Source of the DNA: a virus
Direction: 5' to 3' (one strand)
DNA length: 64,000 bases
Virus record (IMG/VR): IMGVR_UViG_3300032313_001035
Each line of letters opens with the position of its first letter. Position 1 is the first letter of the stretch. The notes beneath the pieces were generated by a model that was given only the letters and a program-made list of their open reading frames with translations, was not told where the DNA came from and made no database searches. This document shows, in pieces, positions 30,321 through 48,174 of this stretch. The translations under genes and the position numbers were made by a program.

Positions 30321-30827
30321 ATGAGTGTATATTTTCTGGGTGATCCGCATCTGGGTCACAAAGCAATCGGACGTTATCGTCCATGGGTTAAAGATAGTGC
30401 GGCGAACACTGCGCTTATTCATAAACTATGGCGTGACACGATTAAAAAGAGTGACATCGTATATGTCATGGGCGATGCAGCATTCTCTGATGATGAACTC
30501 ATCGCAATGGGCAATCTGCGGGGTCGTAAGATTCTCATCAAAGGCAATCACGATGACTTTGTAAGCACTTCGCTACAGACTCAGGTGTTCGAAGAAATTC
30601 ACGGCATCATCAAGTATAAAGCTATGTGGCTAAGTCATGCACCGATCCACCCTGCGGAGCTCCGTGGCAAAAAGAATGTGCATGGACACACGCATATGAA
30701 AAGCGTTCGTACTTGGTATGGAACTCTTGACAAGCGTTACTATAATACTTGTGTCGATGTGGTTTACCCGAAGACTGGCAATATATTTGTGAATCTTGAA
30801 ACGGTTAAAAGTTATTTTGGATTATGA
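30321..30827 (+). CDS. metallophosphoesterase
   Basis: GDPHLGH, MGD, KGNHD, SHAPIHP, HGHTH. Confidence 0.9.
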   Translation: MSVYFLGDPHLGHKAIGRYRPWVKDSAANTALIHKLWRDTIKKSDIVYVMGDAAFSDDELIAMGNLRGRKILIKGNHDDFVSTSLQTQVFEEIHGIIKYKAMWLSHAPIHPAELRGKKNVHGHTHMKSVRTWYGTLDKRYYNTCVDVVYPKTGNIFVNLETVKSYFGL

Positions 30828-31036
30828 ATATTGGAGAGGAAATGAAAGATACAGTCTATCAATCACTTTGGTATTCAGTTCATAAATTAGTTCGTGATGC
30901 AGTTTGGAGCTCGGTTCATAATAGAATTAGCGGTTCATTTTTACAATGCGGTCGGTTGACATTTAACGACTCTGAATTTAGTTCAGTCCGAGATACAATA
31001 AAAGAATACAAATACCAATCGTATGATTTTAAATGA
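30824..31036 (+). CDS. SV-repeat mini-protein family member
   Basis: MNIGEE start, VWSSV, 4-residue periodicity, ends IKEY. Confidence 0.65.
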   Translation: MNIGEEMKDTVYQSLWYSVHKLVRDAVWSSVHNRISGSFLQCGRLTFNDSEFSSVRDTIKEYKYQSYDFK

Positions 31037-39927: not shown

Positions 39928-40170
39928 ATGGATATTGAAGAAATATTCTACCCCAAAGAAGTCGAATCTCTCCTGAGCGATCTTTGGGGTACTATGAGAA
40001 ATGCGCCAACAGAACGTTGGCAAATGCCTCGGACAACTGGTTTCCAACGTCTTGTTGACTTTCGATTATGGCGTGGTATAATTCAAGAACAAATCAACAG
40101 CAATGCTTCAAACAGAACTAAATCGCCTGACATCAGGACTATATTGCCTACCCATACGGAAGCTTCGTGA
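39928..40170 (+). CDS. hypothetical mini-protein
   Basis: co-oriented ORF starting MDIEE. Confidence 0.4.
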   Translation: MDIEEIFYPKEVESLLSDLWGTMRNAPTERWQMPRTTGFQRLVDFRLWRGIIQEQINSNASNRTKSPDIRTILPTHTEAS

Positions 40171-40318
40171 TGAGTTGTGGGAGGATGTAATACAGCTACA
40201 ATTAAATGATGATATAGACGATATTGTACATGATAATGTTAGAAGACGGTCATTATTAAGCCACATTGCTGGGAACATAGGTTGGGAATTATTTGAAAGA
40301 GGACAAAATGAAAGATAA
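40103..40318 (+). CDS. hypothetical mini-protein, possible diverged SV-family member
   Basis: 4-residue hydrophobic periodicity LRDELWEDV...IDDIVHDNV. Confidence 0.45.
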
Positions 40319-41414
40319 TAAAAATAATATGAAAAAAGCTATTATAACAGGCATCACAGGTCAAGATGGATCTTATCTCGCTGAACTATTACTTGAGAAA
40401 GGTTATATTGTTCATGGAATTAAAAGACGTTCATCTTCCTTTAACACACAACGACTCGATAAATTCTTCGAACATCCTAACCTCCACCTGCACTATGGCG
40501 ATCTAACTGATTCGAGTAATCTAATAAAGTTGATTGCTGAAATTGAACCAGATGAAGTATACAACTTAGGAGCACAATCTCATGTAGCTGTATCATTTGA
40601 TTTACCAGAATATACTGCTGATGTTAATGCATTAGGTACACTGAGATTGCTCGAAGCGATTCGTTTTCTCAAACTTGAGAATAAAACTCGCTTCTATCAG
40701 GCATCGACATCTGAACTATTCGGCTCATCTGAACCACCCCAATCAGAACTAACACCATTCCATCCTCGATCTCCGTATGCAGTATCTAAGCTCTATGCGT
40801 ACTGGATTGTTAAGAACTATAGAGAAGCATATGGAATGTTTGCGTGTAATGGTATATTGTTCAATCACGAATCACCTCGTAGAGGAGAGACATTTGTAAC
40901 ACGAAAGATTACTCGTGGTATTGCAGAGATCTCTCTTGGTGTTAAGAGCGAGCTACGACTCGGTAATCTTGATGCTAAACGCGATTGGGGTCACGCAAAG
41001 GATTATGTATATATGCAATGGTTGATGCTTCAGCAAGATCATGCTGAAGACTTTGTCATTGCGACGAACAAACAAATCTCTGTTCGTGAATTTGTTCGCA
41101 TGTCTGCACGTGAGGCAGGTATGGAACTGGAATTTCATGGCGATGGGATTGAGGAGACTGGGATTGTCAAATCCATACTTGATGATCAGAAAGCCCCAGC
41201 AGTTAATGTAGGGGACGTTGTTATAAGAGTCGATGCTCGTTATTTCCGACCAGCAGAAGTGGAAACACTCTTAGGCGATCCTTCTAAGGCAAAAGAAAAA
41301 CTTGGGTGGTCTCCTGAAATTACTGTGGAGCAAATGTGTGCGGAAATGGTTGCTTCCGATCTTGCAGAATTACGCCGACATACCCTCCTTCAAAATTATG
41401 AGCATCGAAAATGA
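40308..41414 (+). CDS. gmd: GDP-mannose 4,6-dehydratase
   Basis: [67 protein letters not shown]. Confidence 0.97.
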
Positions 41415-42938
41415 AATCACTGGATCATTCATCTTAAATGATTTGTTATATGCAATGAGTGGAGCTTGTCTTGACCGTTTGTCTGCTAAGAGTTACCCTG
41501 ATAATCTTCACACTGATGTATGGTATGCAGTCGACTGGCAAGTGAGAAGTGCAATCCAAAATGAGATGAGAGAATATGAGCACAGCATCAAATAATATAT
41601 TTATTCCAAGTTCTTTGCCAGATGAGGCATGGACAATTAAAGATATTATAAGTGAGCAGTTCGAATTTGATCTTATATTTGATATCTGCGATGCTCTTAA
41701 ACTTGATGACAATGGGGATATTTTCTGGATTCTGAGGGGAGAGGTCTTTTATAACAAATCGATTATAACAAAATAAATATGAAAGAAATTCCCAAACATA
41801 TACCAATCTATAGCACCGTTTGCGATCTTGAATTTAACGCAATTCATGGTAGTATTCGTAAACATGTTAGAGATAGCATTCATCACGAAACACGCTATGA
41901 TATAGATGATAAGTTGGATTGGATTGTCTCTGATGCCATATTCGTCTCTGTGAGTAATAATGTAAATGGGACACTACAAGATTATGAATTTAAGAAATGA
42001 ATTGGTTATAAACCAGATAATAAGGAACAATATGGCGAGTATGAAGGAATCTATTGCCGCATCCCTCCGCGAAATCACTATGAATAACATCTGTGTAGCA
42101 GTGGGATATGGATCAGTCAATGGCGATGTTGTCAATGCGTGTGTTACGATCAACACCAATATACGCGAGGAAGTAAAAGAGTATGGGTATAGTAAATGAA
42201 ATAGATGACTCAGTTAATGGCTCAGTTAGTGACTCAGTTTATGACTCAGTTCATGACTCAGTTCGTAACTCTGTTCGTTACTCAGTTATTGACTTAGCTT
42301 ATGGTACAGTTTGTGGCTCAGTTCATAGCTCAGTTCGCAACTCAGTTCATAACAATGTAGAGAGTGAAATAGAAGGGTATGAATATTAAAAAGAAAATAG
42401 TTGACTCAGTTAATGACTCAGTTGGTTTCTCAGTCTGTATCTCAGTTAATAGATCAGTTTATAAGTCAGTTTGGGTCTCAGTTTGGAGCTCAGTTAGAGA
42501 CTCAGCTTGGGACTCAGTTAATAACTCAGTTCATAGCTCAGTTCGTATTAGTGTATCGAGAGAGATAAAAGAGCATGGATATAGTAAATGAAATAGATGA
42601 CTCAGTTAGTGACTCAGTTTGTGACACAGTTATTGACTTAGTTTATGGTACAGTTAGTGGCTCAGTTTGGGGCTCAGTTCGGGACTCAGTTTGGGGCTCA
42701 GTTCGTATTAGTGTATCGAGAGGGATAAAAGAGCATGAATATCGGAAGTGAAATAAATGAAGATGTGTATAATCTTGTGTGGGAGAATATATGGCGAGAA
42801 TGCAGAAAACCAATCATAGATCAAATGTCATCACTCGCACAGGTCAACACATATGATTCATTGGGATCGGTAATCGATGATACACTAAGAGGCAATATCA
42901 GTATAGAAGTTGTTATTAAAATGAGGGATAAAATATGA
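41398..42938 (+). other. array of 8 coupled mini-genes (41398, 41576, 41779, 41984, 42183, 42379, 42575, 42735)
   Basis: 58-73 aa ORFs, mostly overlapping through (E/D)(Y/H)E / M(N/S/D/G)I junctions; 42575..42751 read by eye. Confidence 0.75.
42209..42703 (+). repeat. 12-nt coding repeat CTCAGTT-N5 (x-x-S-V)
   Basis: about 30 units across three ORFs. Confidence 0.92.
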
Positions 42939-42978
42939 ATATTAATATAACTGTTAAAAACCACTTTATGATTAAGCC

Positions 42979-43530
42979 ATGAAACTTTTTTGGGACATAG
43001 ACGAAACACTCATCCACACAAAGATGAATCCATTCAAGCCAGAATGGAATTGCGAACTCCTTGTATTGGATGATTTTGTTCACTATACCCGCATCAGACC
43101 ATGCGCTCGCGAATTAATCGAATACAGTAGAACTCTTTTCGGTGGCGAAAATGTCTATATCTTGACGGCAGCAACTCATCAGTATGCTAGAGAAATCAGT
43201 CGTGTGGCTAATTGGGGATTTACTTCGGAGCAAATCTTTGCGCGGGAAAATGTGGAGCAATACACGCACCGATCATCAGGTGGTTGGGGCGCAGAACGTG
43301 TGCAAGTTACTGCACATCCTCTTGCTCATCCCGACAATATCTTGATTGACAATCTGCCCCCAGAGTGGAATGAAGAAAAAACGTCTTTTATGTTGATTAA
43401 TCCCAAGACCAACTACTTGAAAGTTAAGGATTACTTGGGCGACAATACCGATGAAGATATTTTTCGCGATAAGGTAAAACACTTTTTGAAAGAAAAAGCG
43501 AAAAATAATTTGACAAACTGTGAGAAATAG
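42979..43530 (+). CDS. HAD-superfamily (FCP1/NIF-like) phosphatase
   Basis: WDIDETLIH, IRP, ILTAA, ILIDN. Confidence 0.8.
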   Translation: MKLFWDIDETLIHTKMNPFKPEWNCELLVLDDFVHYTRIRPCARELIEYSRTLFGGENVYILTAATHQYAREISRVANWGFTSEQIFARENVEQYTHRSSGGWGAERVQVTAHPLAHPDNILIDNLPPEWNEEKTSFMLINPKTNYLKVKDYLGDNTDEDIFRDKVKHFLKEKAKNNLTNCEK

Positions 43531-44113
43531 TTTACTAAACTGTTTGGAAGATGGGGTGGAAATGCATATCCTTTCAATAGAAATATGGCAAAACGAAAAG
43601 GTATAAAATCAAAATTCCCAGAAATAATTTCATATTGGGAAACCAAAATATACGAAGGTGATATCGGGGTCGATTGGTGTGATGCTGATGAAAGATGTTG
43701 GAGATGTGGTTATAAAGCCAGATTAGAAAAATGCCACATCATACCACACTCTTTAGGTGGTGTGGATGAGGTTTCAAACTTAGTATTATTGTGTAATAGA
43801 TGCCATAAAGAAGCACCGAATTCAACCGACAAAGAATGCATGTGGGAATGGATTAAAGCTACCAAGGTAGCATTCTATGATATATTTTGGGCTCAACATG
43901 GACTGGAAGAATATGAAAAAATTTACAACACAAAAATCATCAATGATTTGAAAAATGTTGATTTGACAGATTCTAAAAAAATTAGAATGGTAGTTAGACG
44001 ATCTTTTGAAAATGTGTCTGTTCATTATGGGACAGGGAATTATAACACATCAACAGTTGCCTCAATAATAAAAAATATCACAAAAAACTTGACAAACTGT
44101 GAGAGATAGTTTA
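43510..44113 (+). repeat. 25-bp direct repeats flanking the HNH gene
   Basis: TTGACAAACTGTGAGA(A/G)ATAGTTTA at 43510-43534 and 44089-44113. Confidence 0.9.
43585..44109 (+). CDS. HNH endonuclease
   Basis: CWRCG...KCHIIPHSLGG...NLVLLCNRCH. Confidence 0.9.
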   Translation: MAKRKGIKSKFPEIISYWETKIYEGDIGVDWCDADERCWRCGYKARLEKCHIIPHSLGGVDEVSNLVLLCNRCHKEAPNSTDKECMWEWIKATKVAFYDIFWAQHGLEEYEKIYNTKIINDLKNVDLTDSKKIRMVVRRSFENVSVHYGTGNYNTSTVASIIKNITKNLTNCER

Positions 44114-44124
44114 TATTTCTCGTG

Positions 44125-44230
44125 TTGCCACATTCCAGCCTCCGCAATGAGGGCATTCAAAACGTAACGTGCATTAAGTCTACCTCTCCGTAATGAATGA
44201 GCGACCTGATCGGGGGTTGGAATGTGGTAA
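44125..44230 (+). ncRNA. about 106-nt structured RNA closed by a 20-bp stem
   Basis: TTGCCACATTCCAGCCTCCG pairs with CGGGGGTTGGAATGTGGTAA (G-U pairs); begins at +1 of TTGACA-N17-TATATT. Confidence 0.7.
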
Positions 44231-44277
44231 AAACTACATTATAATACAAGTATGCCAGAAAAAAAAATCACAAAACA

Positions 44278-44844
44278 ATGAAAACATATACAATAAAACT
44301 ACACGGTTACTGCACTGAAGCAAGAATCTATGAACTTGATCAAGATGCCGCTGAATATTGGAATAATCTTCTAATAGTTGGCGAAGACGAAAGTCTTTAT
44401 GAATATCTTGAGGGAGAAGCGACTGATCATTCACCAGAAGCTGACTTTTTGAATGGCGAGGATCAATTCGATGCATCGAGTCTATATGCCACAACTACAT
44501 ACATCGATACCGCCCAAGCTAGAATCAATGTTCAACATGGCGACGAAGAAGTTCTTAACATGGTATTGAATGAGGATGATGTTAATATCGAATGGGTCGA
44601 TGGTGATGAAATGCCAAGTCCAGCACTGCTGGTATCTGATTATTCAAAAGGGGTATTTTTCCAAACAGATTTGGAGCTTGATGATGAAAAAACATTTGAC
44701 AAATCCAAACTTAAAGTTATTCTAAGCGAGGAAGATGAAGGTGAGGCATTCATAGGAGTTTCTTATGATGGTGTTGAACTGGAATTAGACGATTTCTTCT
44801 TGACAGGAAAAGGAAGAACATACACAATTACGAATCTTGACTAA
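44278..44844 (+). CDS. highly acidic hypothetical protein
   Basis: Asp/Glu-rich ORF; first long gene of the operon. Confidence 0.7.
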   Translation: MKTYTIKLHGYCTEARIYELDQDAAEYWNNLLIVGEDESLYEYLEGEATDHSPEADFLNGEDQFDASSLYATTTYIDTAQARINVQHGDEEVLNMVLNEDDVNIEWVDGDEMPSPALLVSDYSKGVFFQTDLELDDEKTFDKSKLKVILSEEDEGEAFIGVSYDGVELELDDFFLTGKGRTYTITNLD

Positions 44845-44850
44845 CCAAAT

Positions 44851-45873
44851 ATGGAAAACAAAGAAACAAAAGATATGACAGAAAAAGTGGAAACTGCTAT
44901 GAAACAAAAAATCGACAAGCTCACACCTGAGCAGGAAGCGAAGATGCCTGAGTATGTCCAGAAATGGATTAACATTGGTATTAACACTGATCGTCTTGAT
45001 CCAGTTCGCACACGAAAAACGATTGATCAGTATCGTGCGTTGATCAATAGACCAGTAGATGTGCCATTGATTATCCTTAATAACCCTCTTGAAGCATGGG
45101 CTGCATGTCATCTCATTACCAACTTTGGTGTTAAGATCGAAGATCTCGATGCAGAGCTTGATGATGTATTCAATGGTAATCCTAAGAAGTATGATATTCC
45201 CCCTGCACAACTTCCATGGCAGTCTGGCTCATTCTTCGCTGCGACCTTTAGCTTCTATGACTTTATGTTTGAAGAAGTAGGTGTGGAGATTGATGCCGAA
45301 CTCTATGCTAAGTATAAGACATGGGAAGCAACTTCACAAATCGGTTGCATCTACCCTATGGAAGAGTATACCATTGTAAGTGAAAAGCCTACAGAGATTC
45401 ATCTCAATGCGGAGAATCGTCTGCATCGTAATGGTGGTGCTGCTCTAACTTATGCTGGTCGTGGTAATCTTAAAGTGTATTCTCTCAATGGTGTTCGTGT
45501 GCCAGAATATATTGCTGTTACGGATGAAGAGAAGCTCGATCTTGATTATTACAAGACTATTGCAAACGCTGACGTTAAAGCAGAATTTGTGAGGAAGGCG
45601 GGGATTGAACGCTTTAAGTCTCTTGGCAAACTTCTCGACACATATGAAAACTATATTGGTGCTGAGTATGAATGGTGGCATAAGAGTCAGTATGAACTCT
45701 GGGATATGGAAGCTATCTTTGATGGCTTGAGCAGTGCGCCATATCTCTCTATGGTCAATCAAACTACAGGTATCTTCCACTTCGAAGGTGTATCACCTGA
45801 TTGCCAAGACCTCAAGAGTGCAATCAAACAGCGTCTCGGTGGACGCGATATGGTTATCAAAGAAATTAAATAA
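44851..45873 (+). CDS. DUF6745-like protein lacking the internal tetrapeptide repeat
   Basis: LTPEQEAKMPEYVQKWINIG; FYDF; IVSEKPTEIH...RLHRNGGAAL.Y...VYSLNGVRVP; NADVK. Confidence 0.7.
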   Translation: MENKETKDMTEKVETAMKQKIDKLTPEQEAKMPEYVQKWINIGINTDRLDPVRTRKTIDQYRALINRPVDVPLIILNNPLEAWAACHLITNFGVKIEDLDAELDDVFNGNPKKYDIPPAQLPWQSGSFFAATFSFYDFMFEEVGVEIDAELYAKYKTWEATSQIGCIYPMEEYTIVSEKPTEIHLNAENRLHRNGGAALTYAGRGNLKVYSLNGVRVPEYIAVTDEEKLDLDYYKTIANADVKAEFVRKAGIERFKSLGKLLDTYENYIGAEYEWWHKSQYELWDMEAIFDGLSSAPYLSMVNQTTGIFHFEGVSPDCQDLKSAIKQRLGGRDMVIKEIK

Positions 45874-45905
45874 ATAAAACAATCAACAACGAAAGAAACA
45901 ACAAT

Positions 45906-46241
45906 ATGAACAAAACAACAGTAATCCTACATGGCGAAGCTATGCTATTCCCAGCCGAACTGCCAGCAGACGCAGTTGAAATTAAGCCTACTAACAACGA
46001 TCTGCATATTATTGCAGATAGTGAAACAACTGGCAATCACCATGTCGTTGATATGGTTGAAGGCACTAAAGTGTTTCGCTCTGGTGATCGCACATTCATT
46101 CGCAACTCTAAACCTACTCAGGTGCGTTGTGTGCATGCCAATCGTCACGATGCTATCGCTATGCCTCCTGGTGTGTGGCAAGTAGATGTACAGCAGGAAT
46201 TTGATCATTTTGCACAAAACATGCGAGCAGTTCGTGATTGA
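45906..46241 (+). CDS. His-rich partner protein typical of DUF6745 loci
   Basis: HGE, SETTGNHHV, H..RH..I.MPPG.W.V..QQEFD...RAVRD. Confidence 0.7.
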   Translation: MNKTTVILHGEAMLFPAELPADAVEIKPTNNDLHIIADSETTGNHHVVDMVEGTKVFRSGDRTFIRNSKPTQVRCVHANRHDAIAMPPGVWQVDVQQEFDHFAQNMRAVRD

Positions 46242-46256
46242 TAAACCTATAGAATC

Positions 46257-46296
46257 AAAGCGAGGAGTTTGTATTCTTATAAGCTCCTCGCTTTTT
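46257..46296 (+). terminator. hairpin/terminator between the DUF6745 operon and the second mini-gene array
   Basis: AAAGCGAGGAGTTT/AAGCTCCTCGCTTT followed by TT. Confidence 0.75.
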
Positions 46297-46301
46297 GTTG
46301 T

Positions 46302-47132
46302 ATGAATATTAAAGAGGAAATAGATGTCTCAGTTAGAGACTCAGTTGATAACTCAGTTAGGATCTCAGTTATTGACTCAGTTTATGGCTCAGTTGATAAC
46401 TTGGTTAATGGCTCGGTTAATGTCTTAGTTAGGAGCTCAGTTAATAACTCGGTTTATCAATCAGTTTGGAGCTCAATTAGAGACTCAGTTAGTAACACTG
46501 TTAGTATTGCGATAAACGATTATGAATATTGAACAGCATATTTATGATACAGTTTGGTTATCTAATCAATCCATACATCTCAGTCTTGAGATGCATACTC
46601 GTGTTGTAACTTCTCCTCTCTTATTTGACGCTGTACACAAAAAAATTAATGTGTTAGTATGGAGCGCTGTATCATCAGAAGTATATAGGAACGTTCGGGA
46701 GTGCATAGAAGAATATGAATATTGATAAGGAAATAGATCGCTCAGTTTGTGACTCAGTTAATGACTCAGTTATGAACTCAACTAGGAAATCGGTTCGGTT
46801 CTCAGTTAAGGACTCAGTTTGGAGCTCAGTTTTTGGTTCAGTTCGCCGCTCAGTTTGTGACTCAGTTAGCATTGCGATAAACGATTATGAATATGACAAA
46901 GCAATCAGTTGAATATTGTGTTTGGAATAATGGTTGGCGTGACATTGATTTTTTGCGCATTGCATTAAGGGCAAATGCTGAAAATCATGTTGATGAAGAA
47001 CCTTTGTATAAAATACAGATTAGTGTGCCACGAAATATTATTAATACAATTGGTGGTAATGTTCCATTTGCTGGCGGTTTTGAATTAAAGTCAACTCTTA
47101 ACACAGAGCTAAGAGAGCGTAAATATAAATAA
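46302..47132 (+). other. second array of 4 coupled mini-genes (46302, 46522, 46715, 46887)
   Basis: MNI starts overlapping YEY ends; CTCAGTT-N5 repeats in 46302 and 46715. Confidence 0.8.
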
Positions 47133-47398
47133 ATTATAATGTATACTTGTTGTAATCAGAATGATCATAAAAACCACATTATGATGTGGGTGTGCAAAGC
47201 GACAAAATAATGAAAAAAAATACGCCAAAACTTAAAGCAATGAAACAAATTGCGCGTATCATGTTTAGGCTTAATCATTTTCTTGAACCTTATGGCTTGA
47301 CAAATGATTTTAAACGGCTACGCTTTATGAATCGCTCATTGTTTCGATGGCATACTGGACTAGAAACACCTACAGAAAAATGAAATCACCATATTGAT

Positions 47399-47629
47399 AT
47401 GAAACATAAATTTTATTATTACGAATATACTGACGATGGTGGAGTGACATGGACGATGGGAGATTATCGCCGCTATCTCATGCCTATTGTAGAATTGGCA
47501 AATGCGCAGCCTTATCGTTTTCGTGTTTGCGATCAAGATGATGACGTGATAGATCCTGTAGAAATACAAGAAGCAACCGATCAAATCCGTTTAATGAATT
47601 TAATCTTTAATAAAGAAGGTCAACTATGA
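47399..47629 (+). CDS. hypothetical protein
   Basis: co-oriented ORF, ATGA-coupled to the next gene. Confidence 0.55.
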   Translation: MKHKFYYYEYTDDGGVTWTMGDYRRYLMPIVELANAQPYRFRVCDQDDDVIDPVEIQEATDQIRLMNLIFNKEGQL

Positions 47630-47838
47630 AACTAATCAAAGCAGGAAATAAACTCAAAAGAATCTGGCGCGGAACTTGTCGAAACTGCGAATCAGAGTTT
47701 GAAGATACCGAAGAAAATGTGAGACTTGGAAAGGTCGAAAGTTGCATTCGCGAAAGAGAAGAATTTGCGCATCGCGATTGCCCAGAATGTGGGCGTAAAG
47801 CGGGAAGGGCAGTTATTCTTTATCCTATTGAATTTTGA
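47626..47838 (+). CDS. zinc-ribbon protein
   Basis: CRNC...CPECG. Confidence 0.65.
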   Translation: MKLIKAGNKLKRIWRGTCRNCESEFEDTEENVRLGKVESCIREREEFAHRDCPECGRKAGRAVILYPIEF

Positions 47839-47850
47839 TAAAATAAATAT

Positions 47851-48174
47851 ATGAAACCAGAACAGCAAAGGCTAAAAATAGCCGAGGTTTGTGGATGGGA
47901 AATCAACAAAAGAAAATGGCTAGCAAAACCACCAAACGATAGTTGGCAATATTTAGATACAATGCCAGACTACCTCAACGACCTCAACGCGATGCATGAG
48001 GCTGAGAAAAACCTTAAACCTAAACAACAAGTAGATTACTGGCTTTGGGTAAATAAATTGGCAGGAAATGACCCGACCAATAGCATTTACTTAGTATGGG
48101 GAGATGCTATTTTTGCTACCGCAGCCCAACGCGCCGAAGCTTTCTTGCGAACCCTCAAACTCTGGGAAGAATAA
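47851..48174 (+). CDS. conserved phage protein (PDYLNDLNAMHEAE family)
   Basis: IAEVCGW, PDYLNDLNAMHEAE, ATAAQRAEAFL. Confidence 0.7.
   Translation: MKPEQQRLKIAEVCGWEINKRKWLAKPPNDSWQYLDTMPDYLNDLNAMHEAEKNLKPKQQVDYWLWVNKLAGNDPTNSIYLVWGDAIFATAAQRAEAFLRTLKLWEE

What the first reader, a model, noticed from the sequence alone, without database searches (positions are those of the whole stretch)
41398..47132. Candidate new system: repeat-less DUF6745-like protein and partner surrounded by arrays of stand-alone hypervariable SV-repeat mini-genes
Seen: 12 coupled ORFs of 58-81 aa in two arrays (41398-42938, 46302-47132), plus outliers near 30824, 31023, 40103 and 49594. Five are almost pure (x-x-S-V)n; the rest look like decayed versions. 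They bracket an operon of an acidic protein, a DUF6745-like protein (44851) and a His-rich partner (45906). Recalled knowledge, unverified here: DUF6745 proteins usually carry an internal SVxx/QVxx tetrapeptide repeat between the N-terminal LTPEQ region and the FYDF/RLH domain. This copy has no such repeat at that position. Inference: the variable module has been externalised into a library of interchangeable trans-acting subunits or decoys, giving a combinatorial specificity system, perhaps for anti-defence or phage competition.
Basis: partly seen in the sequence, partly recalled or inferred. Interest (0 to 1): 0.88.

Follow-up and report, generated by a model that had tools for sequence, protein, structure and literature searches.

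The report
Detached repeat mini-genes beside phage DUF6745
A large uncultured phage encodes about a dozen tiny, fast-changing helical proteins that are free-standing copies of a four-residue repeat which related phages build into one unstudied protein (DUF6745). A structure model clips them back onto this phage's repeat-less DUF6745, so one core may carry many interchangeable surfaces.

Summary
Two arrays of overlapping mini-genes (41398-42938 and 46302-47132) flank a DUF6745 gene (44851) and a small His-motif partner (45906). Five minis are nearly pure (x-S-V-x)n. Six more, including the outlier at 30824, are diverged paralogues, and 46887 is borderline. ORFs 41576, 31023, 40103 and 49594 are not supported.

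Many DUF6745 relatives carry an internal xxQV, xxKV or xxNL tract of 60-270 aa at the junction where this copy has none.

In 66 non-redundant viral loci, at least 2 repeat mini-ORFs lie within 6 kb of 22 of 42 repeat-less genes. The same is true of 1 of 24 tract-bearing genes, and that one looks spurious. This rests on only 3-7 independent transitions.

Between positional orthologues a mini is 55% identical in protein, yet 8% diverged at fourfold silent sites. Its neighbours are 93-95% identical and 26-36% diverged.

A complex model docks a mini on the DUF6745 protein (score 0.82, best control 0.00). The invariant S-V stripe is buried and x1 is exposed.

Function is unknown; counter-defence is inferred from mycobacteriophage Tweety gp54, an analogue and not a homologue. 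This scan has noted the same split layout in at least 10 other genomes. No paper in the held library mentions DUF6745.

The parts
30824..31036 (+). Outlying diverged mini-gene (70 aa). It has an MNIGEE N-cap, degenerate x-S/T-V/L-x units and an EYKY C-cap.
   Evidence: Sequence. It aligns with the family (A3) and was part of the HMM training set.
41398..41595 (+). Strongly diverged mini-gene (65 aa), first ORF of array 1. It ends in REYEHSIK.
   Evidence: HMM E 7.4e-5, not in the training set. Its stop overlaps the next ORF.
41576..41776 (+). ORF of 66 aa inside array 1 with no detectable family signal. Membership is not supported.
   Evidence: No hit in the HMM search. Only its position and coupling link it to the array.
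41779..42000 (+). Diverged mini-gene (73 aa) with a DYEFKK C-cap.
   Evidence: HMM E 4.6e-11, not in the training set.
41966..42199 (+). Diverged mini-gene (77 aa) with an EYGYSK C-cap.
   Evidence: It was in the HMM training set.
42183..42389 (+). Pristine mini-gene (68 aa), about 12 x-S-V-x units.
   Evidence: Codon table. CTCAGTT cores in register.
42379..42591 (+). Pristine mini-gene (70 aa), 13 units. This is the copy that was folded and docked.
   Evidence: AlphaFold2 gives a single helix over residues 3-65, pLDDT 89. Complex model.
42575..42751 (+). Pristine mini-gene (58 aa), about 9-10 units.
42735..42938 (+). Diverged mini-gene (67 aa), last ORF of array 1. It keeps the MNIGSEI N-cap.
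   Evidence: HMM E 4.5e-6, not in the training set.
44278..44844 (+). Acidic 188-aa protein upstream of DUF6745. It is a lineage-specific neighbour and probably not part of the conserved module.
   Evidence: tblastn finds it only in the two closest relatives, L078 and L080, among 85 loci. No Pfam, PHROG or PADLOC family.
44851..45873 (+). Repeat-less DUF6745 protein (340 aa). It has the N-domain (LTPEQ ... PLEAW) and the C-domain (FSFYDF ... LH ... NADVKAEFVRKxGIER ... H-x-E), joined with no tetrapeptide tract between them.
   Evidence: Pfam PF20530 at 35.1 bits against a cut-off of 27; phrog_31813. 265 and 3239 relatives. Alignments A2 and A4.
45906..46241 (+). Small His-motif partner (111 aa; HGE ... 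ADSETTGNHH ... RH ... EYDHF ... VRD), fold and function unknown.
   Evidence: phrog_27831, E 1.5e-4. Found next to DUF6745 in 73 of 80 viral loci, both fused and repeat-less. Alignment A5 with invariant G, P, E, G, H, H, G, D, D.
46257..46294 (+). Terminator-like hairpin of 17 pairs between the partner gene and array 2.
   Evidence: Consensus scan. Function not tested.
46302..46532 (+). Pristine mini-gene (76 aa), about 15 units. It is the positional orthologue of L078:6447-6677.
   Evidence: Orthologue comparison.
46522..46725 (+). Diverged mini-gene (67 aa) with MNIEQ and EEYEY caps.
   Evidence: 82% identical to L080:6610-6819.
46715..46912 (+). Pristine mini-gene (65 aa), 11 units, with a DYEYDKAIS tail.
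   Evidence: Its orthologue in L081 has two more units, 73 aa.
46887..47132 (+). Last ORF of array 2 (81 aa). A borderline, strongly diverged member.
   Evidence: HMM E 0.083. Its counterpart L078:7264-7494 ends in KKYEY.

Best explanation
The mini-genes are free-standing, diversified copies of the central tetrapeptide-repeat helix that many DUF6745 proteins carry between their N- and C-domains. In this phage clade the DUF6745 protein has no tract.

Each mini-protein is a single helix of about 60 residues with three parts:
- a lineage-specific N-cap and C-cap;
- an invariant Ser-Val stripe;
- two variable positions per unit, drawn almost only from polar, charged and aromatic residues.

Proposed mechanism: each mini docks through its S-V stripe and C-cap into a groove at the N/C-domain junction of the repeat-less DUF6745 protein. 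That protein works with its conserved small His-motif partner. Docking exposes the variable residues. The 11-12 paralogues would then give one core many alternative surfaces.

The arrays turn over by whole-gene and 12-nt unit duplication and loss. The variable positions change far faster than silent sites.

The most likely role is an early accessory function in phage-host or phage-phage conflict, such as counter-defence, by analogy with the tunable tetrapeptide-repeat protein gp54 of mycobacteriophage Tweety.

Shown here: family membership, the fused and split forms, their complementary distribution, the hypervariability, and a predicted interface.

Inferred: physical binding, interchangeability, and the biological role.
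For: 1. 44851 passes the Pfam DUF6745 cut-off.

2. Relatives with two matched stretches carry (xxQV)n, (xxKV)n or (xxNL)n tracts of 60-270 aa at the junction.

3. Complementary distribution in 66 non-redundant viral loci. At least 2 repeat mini-ORFs lie within 6 kb of 22 of 42 repeat-less genes, against 1 of 24 tract-bearing genes, and that one is an off-frame RLM repeat. Minis elsewhere use xxSV, xxQV, xxNV, xx(E/K)V and xxQL, an overlapping set of repeat types with that of the internal tracts.

4. Selection acts on the protein. Different lineages freeze different codons for the same Ser-Val: C-TCA-GTT here, T-TCT-GTT in L001, T-TCA-GTC/T in L003 and T-AGT-GTT in L079.

5. Hypervariability. 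Window 46302 against its positional orthologue in L078 is 55% identical in protein, with fourfold-site divergence 2/25 = 0.08. Neighbouring genes are 93-95% identical with 0.26-0.36. Differences fall on 8 of 98 core bases and 40 of 70 variable bases. A second pair gives 7/77 against 32/55 and differs by two units.

6. Structure. AlphaFold2 gives a single helix for the mini (pLDDT 89) and for the internal tract of the fused relative P0137.

7. Complex model of window DUF6745 plus mini 42379. The score is 0.82 (runs 0.78-0.89) and the best of 3 controls is 0.00. That mark was reached by 58 of 80 solved complexes and 2 of 110 mismatched pairs. These counts hold only roughly here, because my own alignments were used. 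Partner pLDDT is at least 79 and the runs share at least 48% of their contacts. Across the 13 units, contacts include V 13/13, S 12/13, x4 9/13 and x1 3/13. The C-cap touches DUF6745 residues 79-83, 119-121 and 199-209, which is the junction where fused relatives carry the tract.

8. The DUF6745-partner pair is conserved in 73 of 80 loci.

9. Cyanobacterial DUF6745 proteins fused to LRR repeats suggest that the domain is commonly coupled to a recognition module.

10. Tweety gp54 has the same design: terminal domains flank 40-48 tetrapeptide repeats with frozen third positions, and changes in repeat number tune counter-defence (PMC9262239, PMC2884959).
Against: 1. No measurement of binding, expression or phenotype exists.

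2. The complex model may score high because it has learnt the fused homologues. In that case it shows likeness to the internal tract, not that the free protein binds.

3. The complementary distribution is largely one big clade. The tree needs 7 changes, of which only 3 are forced by well-supported branches, and too few independent pairs exist for a sign test.

4. 20 of 42 repeat-less loci showed no minis within 6 kb. Several of these are cut at contig ends.

5. A strict period of 4.0 residues does not keep one face of a straight alpha-helix towards a partner over 50 residues. The helix would have to wrap or sit in a deep groove, so the modelled geometry is uncertain.

6. The caps are dual-coded with the neighbouring gene's start or stop. 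Their conservation therefore need not reflect docking.

7. The fold and activity of DUF6745 and of the partner remain unknown.
Confidence: 0.55

Rival explanations
1. The minis descend from, or gave rise to, the DUF6745 tract but now act on their own. They could be self-assembling helical proteins, or direct binders, decoys or inhibitors of host or rival-phage proteins. On this view they stay near DUF6745 only through shared history and early-gene clustering.
For: Mini arrays occur on an 86-kb fragment and a 43-kb fragment with no DUF6745 hit (G001 and G005). One family member, 30824, lies 14 kb away from the module. AlphaFold2 predicts a lone helix, which would normally need to oligomerise or bind something. 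The high complex score may simply echo the fused homologues (caveat stated).
Against: G001 and G005 are only 48% and 24% complete. Arrays sit directly beside DUF6745 and its partner in many lineages that use different repeat types. Minis are nearly absent where the tract is built in. In the model the invariant S-V stripe, not the variable face, makes the contacts, and the controls score 0.00.
Confidence: 0.22
2. The arrays are neutral or selfish by-products. A slippage-prone 12-nt microsatellite was excised from DUF6745, amplified by tandem duplication, and is now decaying. The ORFs have no function.
For: The window holds a gradient from pristine to strongly decayed copies. Gene content differs between close relatives. 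Contigs of related strains carry a 24-nt insertion and break or join inside the arrays.
Against: Reading frames, caps and start/stop coupling are kept in every copy and across lineages. Ser-Val is kept through different codon sets, including TCN against AGY. Variable positions avoid hydrophobic and stop codons, with A or G at the second codon base in 51 of 60 and 53 of 60 units. Replacement change far exceeds silent change, which is the opposite of neutral decay.
Confidence: 0.1
3. The repeat works at the DNA or RNA level. It could be a binding-site array, a recombination hotspot, or the target of a dedicated mutator such as a diversity-generating retroelement. On this view the peptide reading is secondary.
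For: Seven of the 12 bases are nearly invariant, including silent sites, and run against the genome's codon bias. GAC is used 21 of 21 times against 19% in the background, and TCA 46 of 52 against 20%. Silent sites of the core diverge less than those of neighbouring genes, 0.08 against 0.26-0.36. All frames are open across the repeat.
Against: The frozen core differs between lineages while the peptide S-V stays the same. So no single DNA word is conserved. The third-position A of TCA, which an adenine-specific retroelement would scramble silently, is A in 52 of 60 units. Substitutions at the variable sites are of all types. Gene-like caps and coupling are conserved.
Confidence: 0.06

Closest known systems
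DUF6745 (Pfam PF20530, phrog_31813) proteins with an internal tetrapeptide tract, with their phrog_27831 partner. Examples are the representatives P0129, P0132, P0137 and P0213, and the DUF6745 protein of Microcystis phage LMM01.
   Same: The N- and C-domains are homologous, and the fold match to the LMM01 protein has E 7.5e-15. The small His-motif partner lies next door in both forms. The repeat design is the same: two fixed and two variable residues per unit, with W/R/G/D/S/N at the variable sites.
   Different: Here the tract is absent from the DUF6745 protein. It is encoded instead as 11-12 separate capped mini-genes in two overlapping arrays. The fixed pair is S-V, whereas the tract-bearing relatives examined use Q-V, K-V or N-L. 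No function is known for either form, and no paper in the held library mentions DUF6745.
Mycobacteriophage Tweety gp54 (also Che8 gp57 and PMC gp51), a tunable counter-defence protein
   Same: Unique terminal regions flank tens of tetrapeptide repeats. Two positions are fixed (Ala-Ala) and two are variable. Third codon positions are frozen while first and second positions vary. Repeat number changes readily and tunes activity against a prophage defence (PMC2884959, PMC9262239).
   Different: It is not homologous. gp54 has no Pfam family, and profile comparison with DUF6745 gives probability 0.04. It is a single fused protein rather than a library of detached repeat genes. Its repeat composition, GC content and host are also different.
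Diversity-generating retroelements (for example Bordetella phage BPP-1 Mtd)
   Same: Variation is concentrated at a few codon positions of a phage protein while the scaffold stays fixed.
   Different: The changes are not adenine-specific: the silent A of TCA is kept in 52 of 60 units. No template repeat was seen. The variable unit is a 12-nt microsatellite spread over many genes. The window was not searched for a reverse transcriptase, and the whole genome is not held.

Membership tests
DUF6745 (Pfam PF20530), for the 44851 protein | Match to the family HMM at or above the curated cut-off | tested here: met
   35.1 bits against a cut-off of 27, E 1e-8. The match covers profile positions 35-127 of 206. 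Also phrog_31813 at 2e-7.
DUF6745 (Pfam PF20530), for the 44851 protein | Conserved N-domain (LTxEQ ... P-x-x-AW) and C-domain (FYDF, LH-x-DGPA, NADV(K/R)-x-EF(V/I)RK-x-GIER, H-x-E) shared with family members | tested here: met
   Full-length alignments with 112 and 70 relatives. Invariant K249, G251, Y281, M301, N303, H310 and E312. 3239 relatives at E up to 0.001.
DUF6745 (Pfam PF20530), for the 44851 protein | Central tetrapeptide-repeat tract between the two domains. This is common in the family but not universal. | tested here: not met
   There is no period-4 signal in 44851 or its close relatives, which score 3-7 of 32 against 16-28 in tract-bearing members. The tract is variable within the family, so its absence does not exclude membership.
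DUF6745 (Pfam PF20530), for the 44851 protein | Adjacent small His-motif partner gene (phrog_27831) | tested here: met
   The 45906 protein matches phrog_27831 at E 1.5e-4. A homologue lies beside DUF6745 in 73 of 80 viral loci.
Detached DUF6745 tract, for the mini-proteins | Same repeat design and predicted structure as the internal tract | tested here: met
   Period 4 with two fixed and two variable residues and the same variable-residue repertoire. Both are predicted as a long single helix. Ordinary sequence homology cannot be established for such simple repeats: a search of longer proteins with a mini found nothing.
Detached DUF6745 tract, for the mini-proteins | Complementary distribution with tract-bearing DUF6745 | tested here: inconclusive
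   Raw counts are 22 of 42 against 1 of 24. Only 3-7 independent transitions lie on the tree, and the independent-pairs test has no power.
Detached DUF6745 tract, for the mini-proteins | Physical binding to the repeat-less DUF6745 core | not testable with these tools
   Only a model is available: score 0.82 against a best control of 0.00, partner pLDDT at least 79, contact agreement at least 48%.
Tweety gp54-like tunable counter-defence proteins | Homology of the terminal domains to gp54 | tested here: not met
   gp54 has no Pfam family. hhalign of the DUF6745 profile against gp54 gives probability 0.04.
Tweety gp54-like tunable counter-defence proteins | Tetrapeptide repeat with frozen silent positions and variable first and second codon positions | tested here: met
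   for this window. PMC2884959 for gp54.
Tweety gp54-like tunable counter-defence proteins | Changes in the repeat alter escape from a host or prophage defence | not testable with these tools
   This needs an isolated phage and host.
Diversity-generating retroelement target | Variation confined to positions that are adenine in a template repeat | tested here: not met
   The synonymous third-position A of TCA is kept in 52 of 60 units, and the variable sites show all substitution types.
Diversity-generating retroelement target | Reverse transcriptase and template repeat nearby | not tested
   The window's ORFs were not all scanned for a reverse transcriptase, and the whole genome is not held.

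The most novel reading that the evidence does not exclude
The phage runs a combinatorial recognition system. One conserved DUF6745/partner core is loaded with any of a dozen hypervariable helical adaptor proteins. The variable 5 of every 12 bases are renewed by a dedicated or repeat-intrinsic diversification process, while the 7-base core is kept uniform. This would be a protein-level counterpart of an immune repertoire, encoded by a virus of bacteria.
Probability: 0.15. Interest if true: 0.92.

Novelty: new variant of a known kind. Interest (0 to 1): 0.78.

Why it matters
DUF6745 is a very large phage protein family, with over 3000 cluster representatives found here, and nothing has been published on it. 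The split form turns an opaque internal repeat into a testable hypothesis: one core plus many exchangeable, fast-evolving surfaces.

If the docking is real, it would be an unusual way for a virus to multiply the specificities of one machine. It would also give a natural scaffold of single helices whose exposed residues evolve like binding sites. It would further point to the job of the fused family members. That job is probably in the arms race with host defences, as for Tweety gp54.

The contrast between near-frozen silent sites and saturated coding sites is also a clean case for studying how microsatellite-coded proteins diversify.

Tried and rejected
- Megablast of the region and tblastn of 44851 against the GenBank phage collection: no match.
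- No whole genome is held for the window.
- Word-indexed search for longer proteins with a mini as query: none scored. This is weak evidence, because the repeats are of low complexity.
- DNA pattern scan for three in-register CTCAGTT cores: 71 stretches. Most are unrelated simple repeats, including some in giant-virus bins. Only five contigs hold true family members.
- Fold searches with the fused-relative model. Foldseek against PDB found nothing at E up to 0.001. VIA-align listed only long coiled-coil helices at Z up to 5.7, all matching the tract helix, so the globular domains were barely tested.
- PDB sequence searches with profiles of the DUF6745 C-domain and of the partner: only chance-level hits.
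- PADLOC: no defence-system family. There is one weak Cas2e hit for a mini at E 0.004, taken as compositional.
- Partner protein: no Pfam family. The Atlas gives only unnamed viral clusters.
- Genome-contig scan: only 7 loci, all on metagenome-assembled or uncultured-isolate contigs. The scan used one peptide pattern, so its sensitivity is limited.
- Independent-pairs test of tract loss against mini presence: too few pairs to reach significance.
- Sequencing runs: no RNA holder is listed. Only contigs of DNA runs were available, so expression could not be examined.
- Joints inside the arrays in those contigs may be strain variants or assembly artefacts of repeats, and were not used as evidence of recombination.
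- Sigma-70-like promoter matches in 40000-48000 are no more frequent than in shuffles.
- Literature: 0 papers mention DUF6745. A search on tetrapeptide repeat, bacteriophage and hypervariable gave nothing relevant.
- Coiled-coil reading of the minis: considered and set aside on general knowledge, not on a test. A period of exactly 4.0 residues is far from the 3.5-3.75 of known coiled coils.

Full report
**Context.** The window comes from a large tailed phage. It encodes a terminase large subunit, tail sheath, RIIA/RIIB and RNA ligase, and GC content is 31-41%. No close relative is present in the GenBank phage collection, and no whole genome is held. The finding lies in a block of small, co-directional, mostly unannotatable genes between rIIA/rIIB and a DnaB-like ATPase gene. 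This looks like an early or accessory region.

**Observation.** The ORFs exist as described.
- Array 1 (41398-42938) holds eight ORFs and array 2 (46302-47132) holds four. Start and stop codons overlap by 11-35 nt at ten of the twelve... more exactly, at all junctions except one 2-nt gap before 41779.
- Five ORFs (42183, 42379, 42575, 46302, 46715) consist of three parts: an N-cap M-(N/D)-I-x-x-E-I, then 9-15 units of x-S-V-x, then a C-cap I-x-E-Y-E-Y.
- At the DNA level each unit is nnC-TCA-GTT-nnn. The 7-base core occurs 39 times in register in the arrays, against 7.3 expected for the whole window. Tandem Repeats Finder also sees a gene-sized period of 196 nt.
- A family HMM searched against all 281 small ORFs of the window supports three members that were not in its training set: 41779, 42735 and 41398. 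ORF 46887 is borderline. ORFs 41576, 31023, 40103 and 49594 get no support. ORF 30824 is a true outlying member.

This gives 11 supported members plus one borderline, rather than 16.

**The core genes.**
- The 44851 protein passes the Pfam DUF6745 cut-off (35.1 against 27 bits) and matches phrog_31813.
- The 45906 protein matches phrog_27831 and carries the motif ADSETTGNHH.
- A tblastn survey finds a 45906 homologue directly beside DUF6745 in 73 of 80 viral loci. So DUF6745 plus this partner is the conserved two-gene module.
- The acidic protein at 44278 is found only in the two closest relatives and is probably not part of the module.
- Two unrelated genes separate array 1 from the module: a NIF-like phosphatase and an HNH endonuclease.

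**Is the recalled premise true?** Yes. An exhaustive HMMER search found 3239 relatives. Many match in two stretches with an insertion between the N-domain and the C-domain. In P0129, P0132, P0137, P0142, P0147, P0151, P0170, P0179 and P0213 that insertion is a clean tetrapeptide array, (xxQV)n, (xxKV)n or (xxNL)n, of 60-270 residues; in P0201 it is a looser period-4 tract. The variable residues are of the same kinds seen in the minis, namely W, R, G, D, S, N and E. The 265 closest relatives of 44851 are all 300-360 aa and lack the tract.

**Do minis go with repeat-less DUF6745?**
- Loci around relatives at 59-94% identity show the same trio: DUF6745, the partner, and SV mini-genes next door.
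- A scan of viral contigs with a C-domain profile gave 80 loci. Each was scored for an internal tract and for repeat mini-ORFs within 6 kb.
- After removing duplicates, 22 of 42 repeat-less loci have at least 2 minis. Only 1 of 24 tract-bearing loci does, and that case is an off-frame RLM repeat.
- Minis in other lineages use xxSV, xxQV, xxNV, xx(E/K)V or xxQL. This repertoire overlaps that of the internal tracts, and each lineage has its own caps.
- Several of the 'no mini' loci end at a contig edge.

The caveat is phylogenetic. On a C-domain tree the tract-bearing forms are mostly deep and the repeat-less forms make up one large clade. The tree needs 7 changes of state, of which only 3 are forced by well-supported branches. 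The independent-pairs test has no power. The tree is unrooted, so whether the split form is derived cannot be told.

**Protein or DNA element?** The codon evidence separates the two levels.

Within this phage the core runs against codon bias:

| Codon | In the repeats | Background genes |
|---|---|---|
| Asp GAC | 21 of 21 | 19% |
| Ser TCA | 46 of 52 | 20% |
| Asn at x1, AAC | 7 of 7 | 23% |

Other lineages freeze other cores for the same peptide: T-TCT-GTT in L001, T-TCA-GTC/T in L003 and T-AGT-GTT in L079. So Ser-Val is selected at the protein level, while the silent sites are homogenised within each lineage, as expected for units that copy each other.

The variable codons have A or G at the second base in 51 of 60 and 53 of 60 units. 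This yields D/G/N/S at x1 and R/N/S/W/Y/C/H at x4, with no hydrophobic residues and no stops.

A diversity-generating retroelement is unlikely. The silent third-position A of TCA, which such an element would scramble, is kept in 52 of 60 units.

**Hypervariability.** Window 46302-46532 and L078:6447-6677 are positional orthologues inside a colinear block of 86% DNA identity. Both are 76 aa and in the same register; for example, the odd N-L-V-N / S-L-V-R unit is seventh in both.

| Gene pair (window vs L078) | Protein identity | Fourfold silent-site divergence |
|---|---|---|
| Mini 46302 | 55% | 2/25 = 0.08 |
| Acidic protein 44278 | 95% | 0.26 |
| DUF6745 44851 | 93% | 0.36 |
| Partner 45906 | 93% | 0.29 |

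In the mini, differences fall on 8 of 98 core bases and 40 of 70 variable bases. The first base of the x4 codon differs in 13 of 14 units.

A second pair, 46715 against L081:8571-8792, gives 7/77 against 32/55 and differs by two units. Its unit-by-unit register is less certain.

Array gene content also differs between phages whose DUF6745 proteins are 90-94% identical. Contigs of co-occurring strains show a 24-nt (two-unit) insertion at 42245.

This is strong diversifying change at two of the four residues. Whether it comes from selection alone or from a biased mutational process cannot be told from these data.

**Structure and docking.**
- AlphaFold2 with a 35-row family alignment predicts mini 42379 as one helix over residues 3-65, pLDDT 89.
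- In the fused relative P0137 the tract is one helix over residues 78-159, pLDDT 55-72, between very confident N- and C-domains.
- The complex job folded window DUF6745 (70-row alignment) with mini 42379 (35-row alignment). The score was 0.82 (runs 0.78, 0.82, 0.89) and the best of three controls was 0.00.
- That mark was reached by 58 of 80 solved complexes and 2 of 110 mismatched pairs. These counts hold only roughly here, because my own alignments were used. Partner pLDDT is at least 79 and the runs share at least 48% of their contacts.
- From the listed interface residues, the 13 repeat units contact the core through V in 13 of 13, S in 12 of 13, x4 in 9 of 13 and x1 in 3 of 13.
- The C-cap (58-70) touches residues 79-83, 119-121 and 199-209. 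This is the N/C junction where fused relatives carry the tract.

The model therefore puts the invariant stripe on the core and the most variable position in solvent.

Cautions:
- The model may have learnt this from fused homologues.
- A strict 4.0-residue period cannot keep one face of a straight helix towards a partner for 50 residues, so the geometry needs experiment.
- The score is the model's own confidence, not a measurement.

**A detail that qualifies the 'docking cap' idea.** The caps are dual-coded. In G-AAT-ATG-AAT-ATT-GA the same bases encode the Y-E-Y-stop of one gene and the M-N-I of the next. Other lineages show the same trick with other words, for example N-E-T-I-T-stop over M-K-R-S-L in L115 and S-Y-D-T-stop over M-T-L-K in L118 (inferred from the protein sequences; the DNA there was not read). 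The junction is thus a duplicating cassette that also couples translation. Cap conservation could owe something to that.

**What the core does.** This remains unknown.
- Foldseek and PDB sequence searches found no solved relative.
- VIA-align matched only the long helix.
- BFVD returned the DUF6745 protein of Microcystis phage LMM01.
- The ESM Atlas returned viral DUF6745 clusters, plus a cyanobacterial cluster in which DUF6745 is fused to leucine-rich repeats. This is a hint that the domain is habitually joined to a recognition module.
- Nearly all members found here are viral. Only 7 loci turned up in 185,579 species genomes, all on metagenome-assembled or uncultured-isolate contigs, and the search was limited in sensitivity.

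**Comparison with the known.** The closest family is DUF6745 itself. 44851 is a member, and the minis are best read as its detached tract.

The closest characterised analogue is mycobacteriophage Tweety gp54. Its terminal domains flank 40-48 Ala-Ala-x-x repeats with frozen third codon positions. Its defence-escape mutants change repeat number and so tune the protein against the Phrann gp29/gp30 defence (PMC2884959, PMC9262239). gp54 is not homologous to DUF6745, so this is a resemblance in design, not membership.

No paper in the held library mentions DUF6745.

This scan has already noted the same split layout in at least 10 other genomes, with the same reading. My tests were run independently on this window and agree with those notes.

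**Verdict.**
- Solid: the homology, the fused/split relation and the hypervariability.
- Supported only by a model: binding.
- Inference: interchangeability and an anti-defence role.

I rate it a new variant of a known but uncharacterised kind, with high interest because it makes a large dark phage family experimentally approachable.

Noticed in passing
window 43503-44082 (HNH gene 43585-44109): The HNH endonuclease gene (Pfam HNH, E 7e-9) is skipped cleanly in contigs of three related strains from the same study: 43503 joins to 44082, skipping 578 nt, in X2, X3 and X4. This is the pattern of a mobile homing-endonuclease insertion, present in this strain only.
   Followed up: partly
window 42386-42392, 46529-46535 and the other mini-gene junctions: The junctions are dual-coded. 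The bases that spell Y-E-Y-stop of one mini also spell M-N-I of the next (GAATATGAATATTGA). Other lineages appear to use different words in the same way, judged from protein sequences only. The junction looks like a duplicating, translation-coupling cassette.
   Followed up: partly
window 42401-42568 (+), 42643-42813 (-), 46675-46872 (-): Alternative-frame and antisense ORFs run through the repeats (TQLxTQF..., TEPQTESR...). They are by-products of the 12-nt periodicity. They lack the caps and coupling of the real frame.
   Followed up: partly
window 46257-46294: A 17-pair terminator-like hairpin lies between the partner gene and the first mini of array 2. Array 2 may therefore be a separate or attenuated transcription unit.
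   Followed up: no
window 42979-43530: A NIF/CTD-phosphatase-like protein (Pfam NIF, E 5e-10) sits between array 1 and the DUF6745 module. Its role in a phage is unknown.
   Followed up: no
ESM Atlas cluster, not in the window: A cluster of 62 cyanobacterial proteins combines DUF6745 with leucine-rich repeats (LRR_4 in 89%, LRR_8 in 81%). This is a second kind of repeat module attached to the same domain.
   Followed up: no
L160:2936-4665: A repeat-less DUF6745 on a long branch is flanked by mini-ORFs rich in S/G/R/W (SGSWSRS...). They are not clean tetrapeptide repeats and may be a different or degenerate kind of detached module.
   Followed up: no
window 40293-41414: A GDP-mannose 4,6-dehydratase-like gene (its translation begins with a Rossmann GxxGxxG motif) lies directly upstream of array 1. 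This fits the earlier scan notes about sugar-modification genes in this genome. It was not tested here.
   Followed up: no
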